A stretch of 64,000 bases of DNA from the NCBI GenBank assembly GCA_963766065.1, contig CAVYAC010000108.1, positions 1-64,000 on the forward strand. Direction: 5' to 3'. Each line of letters starts with the position of its first letter. Position 1 is the first letter of the stretch. This DNA comes from an uncultured Verrucomicrobiae bacterium (GTDB lineage Bacteria > Verrucomicrobiota > Verrucomicrobiia > Palsa-1439). Of this stretch, positions 36,001 through 64,000 are shown piece by piece. Made by a program: the position numbers.

Positions 36001-39000
36001 CGCAGATGAGAACAGCGGCTTACAAACTGCGGTAGTAAAACCCGGCGCTCTCGGCAGCTTGGCGATCGAAGAGGTTCTTGATGTCGATCAGGACGGGCGG
36101 GGACATTTTCGCCTTGAGGTGGTCGAGCGTGAGCGAGCAGAAGGCGTTGTGCTTGTTCGCGAGGAGAACGCAGTCGCACTTCGGCACCTTGTCGAACTCG
36201 ACGTTTTCGATGCCGAAATACTTGCGGACCGTGTCGGGCGAGAGAAGCGGATCGCAACCGAGGACTTTGATACCGAAACCCTGAAGGTACGTGATGGTAT
36301 CGTGGACCTTGCTGTTGCGAATGTCGGGTACGTTCTCCTTGAATGTCAGCCCCAGGATCAGCACCGTCGCGCCCTTGATCGGTTTGCCGACGTGGGCGAT
36401 GCCTTTGATGACCATCTCGCCGACGTGAATCGGCATGGAATCGTTGATCTGTCGGCCCGCTAGGATGACCTGCGGATGGTAACCGAATTGCTGGGCGCGA
36501 TACGTGAGGTAGTACGGGTCGACGCCGATGCAGTGCCCGCCCACGAGGCCGGGATGATACTTGTGGAAATTCCACTTGGTGCCCGCCGCGGCGAGGACCT
36601 CGTCGGTATTGAGGCCGAGCCGCGAAAAAATCAGGGACAGCTCGTTCATGAGCGCGATGTTCAGGTCGCGCTGGATGTTCTCGATGACCTTGGCGGCCTC
36701 GGCGGTGGCGATGCTGGACGCAGGGAACACGCTCTTGGCGACAAGCGAGTAGAGCGCACTGACCTCTTCCAACGTCTCGGCGTCGCAACCACTGACGATT
36801 TTCACAACCTTGTCGACGGTGTGCTCGTGATCGCCGGGGTTGATGCGCTCCGGCGAGTAACCGATTTTGAAATCACCCAGCTTGAGCCCGGATTTTTCTT
36901 CGAGAATGGGCAGGCAAACTTCTTCGGTGACGCCGGGGTAGACCGTGCTTTCAAAAATGACGATGGAACCTTTACTCAGGTTTTCGCCCACGATGCGCGA
37001 GGCGCTGATGACCGGTTCGAGATCGGGGACATTCGCGCGGTCCACGGGCGTCGGGACGGCGACGACGATGTACTTGCACTGGCGCAACTGCTTCGCGTCC
37101 GTGGTGAAACGGATATTCGGGGACTTGAGGTCGCCTCCGAGGGTTTCGCCGGTGCGGTCGATTCCCTGCTGAAGTTCCTCGACGCGGCGCGTGTTGATGT
37201 CAAAGCCGACCACGGGAACGTGGCGGGCGAGTGACACGGCCAACGGCAGGCCGACATAGCCAAGGCCAACAATAGCAACCGTACCCTCAATTGTTTTCAT
37301 AATGTTTGCGAACAACCCCGTAAGAAATAGCAAGTCCCGTGCTCGAAATCCAGCCGTTGTTCATAGGTACGCAGCGTTTACGGGATGAACTCGGCTGGGA
37401 TTCAGCATTCCAGCCAGTAAAATACGCAGGGTATGGTAGTTCTTCACGTCGATCCGGTGCGTACCAAAGTCGGCCGCCAGCGGTTTCACATCCACAATCT
37501 CGTGCGTACCCGGATCAAAGCTCACCTCCAACACCCCGTCGTTGTAGACGGCCCGGCCGCGGTTCTCATCGAGGGCCAGAGCGTAGACCTTGCCTTCCAT
37601 CCGACCCACAATCTGGGAGAGGGCGTCAACCTTGGTGACATAGAACCCATCGCGTTTGGGATTGTCGAGCCACGTCTCACGGTCGGCGAAGAAGCTCGGC
37701 TTTTGGATGAACGGGCCGCCGTACTCGGGGCAGAACGTATCGCAGTTGCCGCACTCGTTGCACCAATCGGCAAAATTGGCGATCTGGTGTTTGCGTTCAA
37801 TCTTCAGCACGCCCGGATCGGCCAGTTGGAGCCGGCCGTCATCCCACGTGTAATTCGTGAACTTGATCTCGACGGGGTCCACTTCGTAATAAAAATTCGC
37901 GTCGTTCGGGCACACGGGAATGCACTTGTCACAACTGATGCAATCATAGAGGTGCAACTTCGAGTCAATCCGTTTCGGCACGGCCATGTTTTTCTCGGCC
38001 GTGTACCGTTCATCAGCGACCGTGCGACTCCAGATCGGGCCGATGTTGAGGAAGCCGGCGTAGTTGACCGCCTCGTCGCGGTTGTTCTTCGCGTGCTCGA
38101 GCGCCGCCTGGGCGTTTCCTTCCCGCTGGAGAATGAAATCGCCGATGTTGTCCACGCCCCGCGTCTTCATATCTCCTTCGAGGTTCTTCATGTACTCGAA
38201 CAGCCGGCCGTAACCGCCCACCTTCAGGAGGTCGGAGCAGGTGGTGATCGGCACGAATCCGCAGGCCACGCAGTTGGCGAAATTATGTTTGTCCACAGCG
38301 GCGGAGAAACTGATCGGGCAGTCGGGCCCGTAGTTTTGCCGCCAGCGCTCGACCAGCCGCAGCGTGATTACGTGCAGCGGCGGGCCGCTGAGATAGATAA
38401 TCTCGTCTTTTGGGAAGAACGTCTTGTGATTGATGACTTCCAGCGTATTGCTGAACTTCACGCCGACGGTGAGTCCGAGTTTGCGTCCCGTCTCCCGCAA
38501 GCGACGCATCATCTCAATGGCGTCATCGAACTTCAGCCCGACGTCGACGGCCGTCTTGTTGACCTGAATGTCGTGGAAGCCGAGACGGTCGTGCAGCAGG
38601 TAGTTGATGTCGTCCAGACCCAGCATCGTCGGGTTCATCTTGACCACGACGCCCATCCCGATGTCGGTCAGGAGGAAGTGGCAGATCTTCTCGATCTCGG
38701 TCGGGGGGCAGTTGTGGAACGTCGAGAGCGTGATCGTGTTGGAAATCTCATCCGGGTAGGGCAGGTCGCGGTACCGTTTCCAACGGTCGGGGATTTCCAT
38801 GCGCAACTGGTCGATGTGTTTCTTCGCGTTGCGAAGACTGGCAATGAAATCGCGGATCGGTTGGGCCGAGATCCCTGCCAGGTTGTAGCCGAGACTGAAA
38901 TCATAGATCGTCGATGTTTTGTCGAACTGGCTCGGCGGGAAGTTCAGCAGGTTGCTCGCCTTGAGCATCTCGACGAGCATCATGCCGGCGACGTATTCGT

Positions 39001-63000: not shown

Positions 63001-64000
63001 ACACGCACCTGTACTCGGCGCTGGCGCGCGGTATGCCCATGCCGAAGAAGACACCGCACAATTTCTACGAAATCCTCAAGTACGTGTGGTGGACGCTCGA
63101 CCGCGCGCTCGATGATGAGGCGGTCTACTACAGCACGCTGGTTGGCGTGCTCGACGCTGTTCGTTGTGGGACGACCACCTTGATCGATCATCATGCCTCG
63201 CCGAATTTCATCCGCCGCTCGCTCGGTGTCATGGCGGAAGCGTTCACGAAGGTCGGGCTGCGCGGGGTGTTGTGCTACGAGGTGACGGACCGCAACGGAA
63301 TGCGCGGGGCAACGCTCGGGTTGGAGGAGAACGAGACGTGGGTGGCGAAGAATCGCGGGCCGATGTTGGGTGGACTGGTTGGCGCGCACGCATCCTTCAC
63401 GCTTTGTGACGAATCGCTCGCGGGCTGCTCGGATTTGGCGGAAAGTTTGGAGTCGGGCGTTCACATTCACGTGGCGGAAGACCCGTGCGATCAGGCTGAT
63501 TGCACGAAGAAGTATCAAATGCGCCTGATCGACCGTCTGGCGGCATTCGGCGTGCTCGGTCCGAAGACGATACTCGGTCATGGCACGCATTTGGACAAGG
63601 CGTCGCTCGATGTCGCACGGGAGGCGGGTTGTTGGTTCGCGCACAACACGCGCTCGAACATGAACAATGCCGTGGGCTACGCGCCCGTGCATCTCATGGG
63701 CAAGCAGGTCGCGCTCGGGACCGACGGCATTGGCGCGGACATGTTTGAGGAAGCGAAGTTTGCGTGGTTCAAGGCGCGGGATGCGCGCAATGGAATTGGC
63801 ATCGGCAATGTCGCTGGATTTCTGACGGGCGCGCAGAGCCTGGCGTCGATGCTTCTCAATACGCGGCTCGGCACCCTGGAAGTCGGTGGCGCGGCGGACA
63901 TCGTTGTTTTGGATTATCCGACGCCGACGGCCGTGACGTTCACAGAATCTGCTCGGGCATTTGATCTTCGGGATGTCATCACAATTCGTGACGGATGTGA

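What a model noticed while it worked through the whole genome (the two positions that open the first line are those of the whole stretch)
37361..64000. Selenium-free variant of the reductive urate (2,8-dioxopurine) pathway in peat Verrucomicrobia
This peat lineage encodes the anaerobic purine-degradation enzymes known from gut bacteria: YgfK-like reductase and SsnA (here), YgeY with Xdh (C92:9038-14006), a DOPDH-like XdhAC with carbamate kinase and a carbamoyltransferase (C41:7601-16330), and a HyuA-like hydantoinase (C24). SelD, YqeB, a cut-off-passing knotted YgeW and DpaL/YgeX were not found in any of 18 genus genomes. This points to a selenium-independent variant with an unknotted carbamoyltransferase and other PLP enzymes in place of YgeW and YgeX.
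Evidence so far: NCBIfam: YgeY passes its cut-off (549/321); SsnA 379/444 on a truncated gene; Se_dep_XDH 652 on a split gene; YgfK N-terminal part E 1e-113. In the genus including G000: YgfK-like 18 of 18, SsnA 16 of 18 (10 of 47 order genomes over cut-off), YgeY 15 of 18, carbamoyltransferase 17 of 18. In G014 and G009, carbamoyltransferase, carbamate kinase, two PALP genes, a ygeY homologue and xdh genes form one cluster. selD 0 of 18, yqeB 0 of 18, dpaL 0 of 18, YgeW over cut-off 0 of 18, each with E. coli as positive control. The finding spans contig positions 37361 to 64109; this window holds only 37361 to 64000 of it.
(Added by a program. Inside this text positions count along the whole contig: contig position 1 is position 1 of the stretch shown here. 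"Call 12" and the like, gene names such as g00115 and contig names such as C1 are that model's own, and its searches are not shown. The text may have been shortened before it was handed on; [...] marks where a part breaks off. The agent that wrote the report below was given it as the finding of a first reader that could run no searches.)

Follow-up and report, generated by a model that had tools for sequence, protein, structure and literature searches.

The report
Selenium-free urate pathway in bog Verrucomicrobia
Bog and soil Verrucomicrobia carry, scattered over the genome, counterparts of nearly every enzyme of the oxygen-free uric-acid breakdown route known from gut bacteria, but none of the selenium genes that gut strains need for it, so they likely run it with sulfur instead, and a version lacking the selenium-cofactor genes recurs in many other environmental phyla.

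Summary
All 18 genus genomes carry a short YgfK, SsnA, a YgeW-type carbamoyltransferase and a CysK-like PLP enzyme; most carry YgeY and two candidate urate reductases. selD, yqeB, yqeC and dpaL are 0 of 18. The window's gene breaks are assembly errors, and dN/dS is 0.05-0.18.

Corrections: (1) the carbamoyltransferase is not unknotted; it keeps YgeW's proline-rich knot loop and is a short YgeW. (2) The C24 hydantoinase sits in a pyrimidine cluster and is at best shared.

The variant is not peat-specific. Of 50 other short-YgfK genomes (chosen mostly for visible clusters), yqeB is in 3, yqeC in 1, dpaL in 3, but selD in 38. This genus is the cleanest selD-free case.

Best reading: a sulfur-matured 2,8-dioxopurine pathway with a ThrC-like enzyme in place of YgeX. 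No activity is shown. I did not find it in print; this scan has noted selenium-free and PLP-pair variants before on other DNA. New variant of a known pathway.

The parts
37361..39361 (-). Short YgfK (666 aa): FMN-barrel ring reductase with C-terminal 4Fe-4S domain, lacking the FAD/NADPH module; predicted 2,8-dioxopurine reductase
   Evidence: 36% to E. coli YgfK 5-437 and 29% to 905-997, middle missing, barrel motifs kept; model pLDDT 84.6 matches DHODH/DPD barrels; 18 of 18 genus
39738..42221 (+). PreT-PreA-type fused flavoenzyme (827 aa), divergent from short YgfK; predicted second, NAD(P)H-fed ring reductase. The stop at 40029 and paired indels at 41233/41312 are assembly errors
   Evidence: NCBIfam PreA 167/335 plus GltD-like half; ssnA in 60 of 80 metagenome loci of its relatives; intact in G010 and in public contigs; not seen beside ygfK in G005, G011, G015
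42384..44045 (+). Adenine deaminase (feeder: adenine to hypoxanthine)
   Evidence: TIGR01178 643/472
44294..45658 (+). CysK-like fold-type-II PLP enzyme (454 aa) of unknown step; predicted to act on albizziin or diaminopropionate
   Evidence: cysKM 126/344; separate CysK/CysM-type genes elsewhere; 18 of 18 genus, 3 of 3 SsnA-positive and 0 of 8 SsnA-negative family genomes; in 37 of 80 short-YgfK loci
58091..59458 (-). 8-oxoguanine deaminase (feeder: 8-oxoguanine to urate)
   Evidence: NF006055 580/532; in 6 of 80 short-YgfK loci
60892..62134 (+). ThrC-like fold-type-II PLP enzyme; predicted stand-in for YgeX. The frameshift at 61374 is an assembly error
   Evidence: intact orthologue NF006050 299/303; lacks the Arg seen in solved bacterial threonine synthases; in 29 of 80 short-YgfK loci; second thrC-family gene on C44
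62827..64000 (+). SsnA amidohydrolase (continues to 64109 on the contig); frameshifts near 62942 and 63939 are assembly errors
   Evidence: NF005540 379/444 on the middle frame; intact G010 orthologue 458/444
   Evidence: TIGR02666 333/284, TIGR00581 199/141, TIGR00177 126/85

Best explanation
These genes likely form a dispersed, sulfur-matured version of the reductive urate (2,8-dioxopurine) pathway, which would break purines down to pyruvate, ammonia, CO2 and ATP in genomes that lack selD, yqeB and yqeC. Predicted steps: adenine and 8-oxoguanine deaminases and an XDH (C92) feed urate; an XdhD-type enzyme (C69) and/or a DOPDH-type enzyme (C41) remove the C6 oxygen, with XdhC, MocA (C14) and a NifS-type desulfurase supplying a Mo=S cofactor; the short YgfK (ferredoxin-fed, possibly through NfnAB and PFOR) or the fused PreT-PreA-type enzyme reduces the ring; SsnA and the single dihydropyrimidinase (C24, shared with pyrimidine breakdown) open both rings; the short knotted YgeW with carbamate kinase makes ATP; YgeY removes the second ureido group; the ThrC-like enzyme eliminates ammonia from diaminopropionate, while the CysK-like enzyme does a side step on albizziin or diaminopropionate (racemisation or urea elimination). 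Shown: presence, family, clade, residues, neighbourhoods, absences, purifying selection. Inferred: every substrate, the sulfur ligand, the electron donor and the PLP roles.
For: The genes scattered in G000 sit together elsewhere: of 80 short-YgfK loci, ssnA 41, CysK-like 37, ThrC-like 29, C41-type Xdh 26, ygeY 24, short YgeW 23, carbamate kinase 21, C69-type Xdh 14, ygeX 1, selenium genes 0. The C69 enzyme groups with E. coli XdhD (support 0.996) and keeps Glu606; it is in 15 of 18 genus genomes. The C41 clade is sister to the E. faecalis and Collinsella TIGR03311 enzymes (support 1.0). No selD, yqeB, yqeC in 18 of 18; no selA in 5 of 5 tested; no selU and no tRNA-Sec in G000; the best selD-like hit is ThiL. 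XdhC, MocA, MoaA and three desulfurases are present. dN/dS 0.05-0.18, control gene 0.06-0.10. No uricase in 4 of 4 genus genomes tested. G022 (100% complete) has a compact cluster with TIGR03311 901/830 and no selD, yqeB or yqeC. A ThrC-like orthologue was not found in three of the four dpaL-bearing genomes (G022, G202; G177 34% only).
Against: No activity, metabolite or metal data. All genus genomes are MAGs (59-95% complete). selD is in 38 of 50 other carriers, above the 26 of 151 in the home class, which could hide a YqeB-independent selenium route. The C41 clade has Asn where the gut enzymes have Val in one substrate loop, and selenium-dependent nicotinate dehydrogenase also has Asn there, so sequence gives no S/Se signature. 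The only dihydropyrimidinase is in a pyrimidine cluster. No NCS2 purine permease in G000, G001, G016. The CysK-like gene co-occurs with dpaL in 3 of 4 cases; G173 has both ThrC-like and dpaL, and G200 has neither. Heme-copper oxidase genes are present, so the host is not a strict anaerobe.
Confidence: 0.65

Rival explanations
1. Same pathway, but the molybdenum hydroxylases still carry selenium, loaded without SelD or YqeB (for example by a NifS/XdhC route that accepts selenide).
For: Closest solved relative of the C41 enzyme's C-terminal part is selenium-dependent nicotinate dehydrogenase; intact orthologues pass the 'Se_dep_XDH' model; 38 of 50 other carriers keep selD; Liu et al. saw no active-site residue that marks Se versus S.
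Against: DOPDH from a selD mutant is inactive and a C. difficile yqeB mutant cannot use urate; this genus has no selenium trait of any kind in the genomes searched.
Confidence: 0.12
2. The core (reductase, SsnA, YgeW, YgeY, PLP pair) works on purine intermediates, but entry is not urate reduction: a different purine is dehydroxylated or a related N-heterocycle is the real substrate, so selenium's rate advantage is not needed.
For: Four molybdenum hydroxylases of different clades; Asn for Val in the C41 substrate loop; two unrelated reductases side by side; no NCS2 permease in G000.
Against: The C69 enzyme keeps the Glu606 that Li et al. tie to isoxanthine formation; 8-oxoguanine deaminase yields urate directly; no uricase found.
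Confidence: 0.14
3. The pathway is incomplete in this genus: the hydantoin-opening step is missing and ureidomethyl-hydantoin is an excreted end product, the later enzymes serving imported ureides.
For: The only TIGR02033 enzyme sits with preTA, a nitrilase-family amidase, an aminotransferase and NCS1; most compact clusters show no hydantoinase within 10 kb.
Against: The C24 enzyme is sister (0.998) to the hydantoinase inside G022's purine cluster and nests with E. coli HyuA and E. faecalis HydA; present over cut-off in 5 of 5 further genus genomes.
Confidence: 0.06
4. Decaying relics left after loss of selenium use, or selD lost in binning.
For: Many broken frames in G000; genes dispersed; all MAGs.
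Against: Breaks are assembly errors; dN/dS 0.05-0.18; 11 genomes at 90% completeness or more all lack selD.
Confidence: 0.03

Closest known systems
2,8-dioxopurine / reductive uric-acid pathway of C. sporogenes and E. coli (Liu et al., bioRxiv 10.1101/2025.04.24.650524; Li et al., PMC12507026)
   Same: Molybdenum hydroxylases of both described entry types (XdhD-type and fused XdhAC-type), YgfK FMN barrel, SsnA, dihydropyrimidinase, YgeW-class carbamoyltransferase with carbamate kinase, YgeY
   Different: No selD, yqeB, yqeC; YgfK lacks its FAD/NADPH module; YgeW is about 60 aa shorter; no YgeX, two other PLP enzymes; a second fused reductase; genes dispersed; free-living host with a terminal oxidase
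Enterococcus faecalis cluster ssnA-ygfK-hydA-dpaL-ygeY-ygeW-arcC-xdhC-xdh-mocA-sclA-selD-yedF-yqeC-yqeB (Haft and Self, PMC2276186)
   Same: TIGR03311 enzyme is the sister clade (about 40% identity); XdhC, MocA, NfnAB-like and PFOR homologues exist in G000
   Different: selD, yedF, yqeB, yqeC, dpaL and NCS2 have no counterpart in G000
C. difficile UacX and the DHase X1 family (Li et al.; Barba et al., PMC4016543)
   Same: FAD-less reductase thought to take ferredoxin electrons; PreA-like reductase linked to ssnA
   Different: UacX is PF01180/PydA-like, while the short YgfK has no such hit and no clear similarity to PreA; the window's PreA-like enzyme is fused to a PreT half. I could not compare either with UacX itself
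Knotted transcarbamylases YTCase (3Q98, 2YFK) and AOTCase (Shi et al., PMC4581275)
   Same: Proline-rich loop, extended 120s loop, K270, Q160, Q98, D334, E344; gene near carbamate kinase
   Different: 331-337 aa, without the extra terminal segments; Asp124 absent; below the YgeW model cut-off and annotated as OTCase in databases

Membership tests
2,8-dioxopurine pathway | SsnA (marker gene) | tested here: met
   15 of 18 over NF005540 cut-off, all 18 at E<=1e-60
2,8-dioxopurine pathway | YgeY | tested here: met
   549/321 in G000; 15 of 18 over cut-off
2,8-dioxopurine pathway | HyuA dedicated to the pathway | tested here: inconclusive
   TIGR02033 515/393 but in a pyrimidine cluster; same clade as cluster-linked HyuA
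2,8-dioxopurine pathway | YgeX/DpaL | tested here: not met
   0 of 18; window PLP enzymes score about 20 vs cut-off 276
2,8-dioxopurine pathway | Conversion of urate to pyruvate | not testable with these tools
   needs biochemistry
Selenium-cofactor trait (SDMH) | selD, yqeB and yqeC in the genome | tested here: not met
   0 of 18 each, E. coli control positive
DOPDH / TIGR03311 | Fused 2Fe-2S plus MoCo protein without FAD, over model cut-off, sister to gut enzymes | tested here: met
   928 and 926 vs 830; support 1.0 with E. faecalis and Collinsella
DOPDH / TIGR03311 | A1078T/S substitution | tested here: met
   Thr in all six C41-clade proteins shown; Thr and Ser in the two gut enzymes; column assigned by inference, anchored on R. 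capsulatus XDH, bovine numbering recalled
DOPDH / TIGR03311 | F1009V substitution | tested here: not met
   Asn in all six shown, Val in both gut enzymes; column assigned by inference, bovine numbering recalled
XdhD (E. coli type) | XdhD clade and Glu606 | tested here: met
   support 0.996, Glu kept
XdhD (E. coli type) | Fused Fe-S/Mo chain over TIGR03313 cut-off | tested here: not met
   three separate subunits; 689 vs 1102
YgfK / TIGR03315 | N-terminal FMN barrel and C-terminal 4Fe-4S domain | tested here: met
   motifs aligned; fold match to DHODH/DPD
YgfK / TIGR03315 | FAD/NADPH module, about 1000 aa | tested here: not met
   666 aa; middle missing; 380 vs 835
YgeW (knotted YTCase) | Proline-rich loop and extended 120s loop (signature of knotted members per PMC4581275) | tested here: met
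   model best matches AOTCase Z 42.9, rmsd 1.5, 312 aligned and 2YFK Z 41.1, rmsd 2.1, 320 aligned, tied with unknotted 1A1S Z 41.0, rmsd 2.2, 306 aligned
YgeW (knotted YTCase) | Extra terminal helices, model cut-off | tested here: not met
   331-344 aa vs 396; 234-236 vs 453
YgeW (knotted YTCase) | Trefoil knot computed from coordinates | not testable with these tools
Threonine synthase | Arg in the asparagine-loop motif of solved bacterial enzymes (phosphate-binding role recalled) | tested here: not met
   Leu or Thr in all 28 cluster-linked proteins aligned versus Arg in 2ZSJ and 6CGQ

The most novel reading that the evidence does not exclude
A whole environmental branch of the 2,8-dioxopurine pathway (Verrucomicrobiota, Acidobacteriota, Planctomycetota, Myxococcota, Bacteroidota and others) reduces urate with sulfur-ligated sister enzymes of DOPDH and XdhD, uses a ferredoxin-fed short YgfK and ends in an undescribed ThrC-like/CysK-like PLP pair. 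Anaerobic purine recycling would then be a common soil and peat process that published gut-based cut-offs miss, and the clade would give a natural S/Se enzyme pair.
Probability: 0.5. Interest if true: 0.72.

Novelty: new variant of a known kind. Interest (0 to 1): 0.55.

Why it matters
The pathway is described as selenium-dependent and enriched in animal guts. How selenium enters these enzymes, and why it is preferred, is open. A conserved sister clade in genomes with no selenium genes gives a direct comparison of S and Se forms of one reaction, and could simplify urate-degrading probiotics. The published screen required 80% coverage and 41-63% identity for YgfK, YgeW, YgeY, YgeX and XdhAC; measured against E. 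coli and E. faecalis proteins, most G000 genes fall below such limits, so the 'gut-enriched' picture is likely biased (inference; C. sporogenes proteins were not available). Li et al. scored 'YgeX' by PF00291 alone, which would lump the two PLP enzymes with it. For nitrogen-poor bogs it would be a route to four ammonia and ATP per purine.

Tried and rejected
Unknotted carbamoyltransferase: rejected. Contig-truncated or pseudogenised SsnA, ThrC-like and DPD-like genes: rejected as assembly errors. A selenocysteine codon at the DPD-like stop: it is TAA, Gln in G010. Divergent SelD: the best AIRS-family hit is ThiL, 258/184. tRNA-Sec: the five Rfam hits in G000 are below the gathering score and are tRNA-Ser, -Leu and -Gly; marginal over-score hits in G001, G005, G016 were not inspected; the low-threshold ARAGORN run was noise. 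CysK-like as a plain DpaL replacement: weakened, it co-occurs with dpaL in G173, G177, G202. Urea release by the CysK-like enzyme: no urease in 5 of 5; urea carboxylase not searched. DPD-like gene as obligate electron partner of short YgfK: in only 2 of 80 short-YgfK loci. Sequence signature for S versus Se: none found. UacX or C. sporogenes DOPDH sequences: not obtainable. Expression: no RNA holder listed. Promoter scan of 39300-39800: nothing. Paper searches without a description of this variant; the paper for the threonine-synthase Arg was not found. Supplements of the two 2025 papers could not be read (bioRxiv closed) and may list such genomes. No complex prediction was run.
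Full report
What is in the window. The window is G000:C108:1-64000 of a 96-kb contig in an 85% complete MAG. Its closest named relatives are Verrucomicrobiia/Verrucomicrobiae MAGs. The 13 public runs that hold more than a fifth of the words of 37300-45700 are labelled bog, peat or soil. 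Between 37361 and 64109 lie seven purine-linked genes, not two: short YgfK, a divergent PreT-PreA-type fusion, adenine deaminase, a CysK-like PLP enzyme, 8-oxoguanine deaminase, a ThrC-like PLP enzyme and SsnA. Unrelated genes (MFS, MntH, porin, TonB receptor) separate them. moaA, moaC and a mogA-like gene are at 15927-17850.

Breaks are assembly errors. SsnA and the ThrC-like gene are frameshifted, and the fusion has a TAA at 40029 with two compensating indels. G010, 95-97% identical in DNA, has intact SsnA and fusion. Public contigs with 0-3 other letters read C at 40029 and lack the indels at 41233, 41312, 61374, 62942 and 63939. Pairwise dN/dS for eight pathway genes is 0.05-0.18, against 0.06-0.10 for a neighbouring control gene (1-4 pairs per gene).

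Rest of the genome. G000 has four molybdenum hydroxylases. C41 is a fused 2Fe-2S/MoCo enzyme; intact orthologues pass TIGR03311 (928, 926 vs 830), and its clade is sister to the single Xdh of the E. faecalis selenium cluster and to that of Collinsella (FastTree support 1.0). C92 lies beside ygeY; C67 lies beside fdrA/allG. YgeY, carbamate kinase, XdhC and MocA are present, with PFOR, NfnAB-like and acetate kinase homologues. The C24 hydantoinase lies with preT, preA, NCS1, a nitrilase-family amidase, an aminotransferase and an aldehyde dehydrogenase, a reductive pyrimidine cluster. It is the only member of its family in G000, yet sister (0.998) to the hydantoinase inside G022's purine cluster. 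Uricase was not found in 4 of 4 genus genomes, urease in 5 of 5; heme-copper oxidase genes are present.

Selenium. selD 0 of 18, yqeB 0 of 18, yqeC 0 of 18, with E. coli positive each time; 11 of the 18 are at least 90% complete. selA 0 of 5. In G000 selU, yedF and tRNA-Sec were not found, and the best selD-like hit is ThiL. The same selD search finds 26 of 151 class genomes, none among 18 of the home family. SsnA matches 11 of those 151 at E<=1e-90; none of the 11 has selD. One of them, G022 (100% complete, another family), has short ygfK, dpaL, TIGR03311 Xdh (901/830), ygeY, short ygeW, carbamate kinase, ssnA and hydA in one block, without selD, yqeB or yqeC. In print, all gut strains with the cluster had SelD and YqeBC, and DOPDH from a selD mutant was inactive; a C. 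difficile yqeB mutant cannot use urate.

The carbamoyltransferase is a short YgeW. Shi et al. give the proline-rich loop and extended 120s loop as the marks of knotted members. The genus protein keeps both, plus Q98, Q160, K270, D334 and E344 of E. coli YgeW; D124 is absent and S200/K203 are A/R. G000's OTCase and ATCase lack the loop. The best PDB sequence hit is YgeW 3Q98. The model (pLDDT 94) matches knotted AOTCase best (Z 42.9, rmsd 1.5, 312 aligned), then 2YFK (41.1) tied with unknotted 1A1S (41.0). The knot itself was not computed. 'Unknotted replacement' is rejected.

The variant is widespread. Within them: ssnA 41, CysK-like 37, ThrC-like 29, C41-type Xdh 26, ygeY 24, short YgeW 23, long YgeW 7, carbamate kinase 21, C69-type Xdh 14, allC-like 6, ygeX 1, selenium genes 0. 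I searched the whole genomes of 50 of the 80, chosen mostly for visible clusters (40 show ssnA): selD 38, yqeB 3, yqeC 1, dpaL 3, CysK-like 42. Of 25 with a C41-type gene in the locus, 18 have selD and none has yqeB. So the loss of the selenium-cofactor markers is general, while loss of selD is patchy, and this genus is the cleanest case. The high selD rate is a result against a simple reading; 28 of the 40 selD matches carry an in-frame TGA, so selenocysteine use may explain it (inference). For the PreT-PreA fusion, the best 80 of 195 metagenome loci hold ssnA in 60, ygeY in 38, ThrC-like in 26 and short ygfK in 3: it is a second reductase type of the same pathway, recalling Barba's X1 family and UacX, which I could not compare directly.

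The PLP pair. In the home family the CysK-like gene tracks SsnA exactly: 18 of 18 genus genomes, 3 of 3 other SsnA-positive and 0 of 8 SsnA-negative genomes. It also occurs in three of four dpaL-bearing genomes, so it is not a plain DpaL substitute. A ThrC-like orthologue is in 5 of 5 genus genomes tested and was not found in dpaL-bearing G022 and G202, with only a 34% hit in G177; G173 has both and G200 neither. All 28 cluster-linked ThrC-like proteins aligned have Leu or Thr where solved threonine synthases have Arg; that this Arg binds the substrate phosphate is recalled, not found in print. I therefore assign diaminopropionate ammonia-lyase to the ThrC-like enzyme (about 55%) and a side step to the CysK-like one. 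In G002, G012, G014, G016 and G017 both PLP genes (in G002 only a fragment of the CysK-like one) cluster with a second YgeY type, a pseudo-ATCase and the C92-type xdh, with ackA in G002, G014 and G016.

Comparison and novelty. It works like the 2,8-dioxopurine pathway, but fails membership on selenium genes, YgeX and full-length YgfK. Searches that found no description of the variant. Papers seen: Liu et al. preprint, parts 1-4 of 9 and passages; Li et al. preprint, parts 1-3 of 5 and passages of PMC12507026; Haft and Self, part 1 of 4; passages of PMC4581275, PMC1570178, PMC11448449; PMC4016543 passages and section 5. Supplements of the 2025 papers were not readable and may list such genomes. 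This scan has earlier, unchecked notes on selenium-free and PLP-pair variants in other genomes; they are not independent support.

Verdict. Real, conserved and selenium-gene-free; a new variant of a pathway solved in 2025; biochemistry untested. Confidence 0.65, interest 0.55.

Noticed in passing
window 59956-60190 and 60809-61050: A decayed duplicate of the upstream region and first ~43 codons of the ThrC-like gene lies 850 bp before the gene.
   Followed up: partly
L038:12377-13327 (G017:C13); also L034, L042, L043, L045, L238: An ATCase-like carbamoyltransferase with the HSLP and VxP motifs of Barba's pseudo-ATCase subgroup 3 follows the second YgeY type; absent from G000. It could make a second carbamoyl phosphate.
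   Followed up: partly
L015:2963-6671 (G002), L014:10772-14336 (G009), L238 (G059): A second SsnA type directly follows a divergent (57-61%) copy of the PreT-PreA fusion; G009 has both SsnA types.
   Followed up: partly
L007:2269-11860 (G000:C67): fdrA and allG (oxamate carbamoyltransferase), a cyclase, a fourth xdhBCA and an amidase, without allB, allC or allD: another N-heterocycle route.
   Followed up: no
L100, L105, L117, L119, L131, L134: Short-YgfK loci with an AllC-like carbamoylase show no ygeY or ygeW; five of six carry the CysK-like gene.
   Followed up: partly
L014:1584-3948, L026, L032; G000:C145: NfnAB-like genes lie about 5 kb from short ygfK in three genus genomes and also end the E. 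faecalis cluster.
   Followed up: partly
L004:800-3700 (G000:C41): Cas9-like ORF, TIGR01865 123/100, 2 kb from the C41 Xdh.
   Followed up: no
G000 genome-wide: ARAGORN lists odd tRNAs (anticodons cta, tta, aca, agt, tat and two undefined), possibly errors or mobile-element tRNAs.
   Followed up: no
window 1975-3201 and 26065-28608: KamA-family radical SAM aminomutase (515/525 for lysine 2,3-aminomutase) and sodium-translocating pyrophosphatase (944/912).
   Followed up: no
window 62158-62685 (-): Membrane protein without a Pfam or listed family sits divergent from ssnA in 9 of the 10 genus ssnA type-1 loci read besides G010.
   Followed up: no
G022:C3:235385-236173: G022 has uricase as well as the complete reductive cluster.
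   Followed up: no
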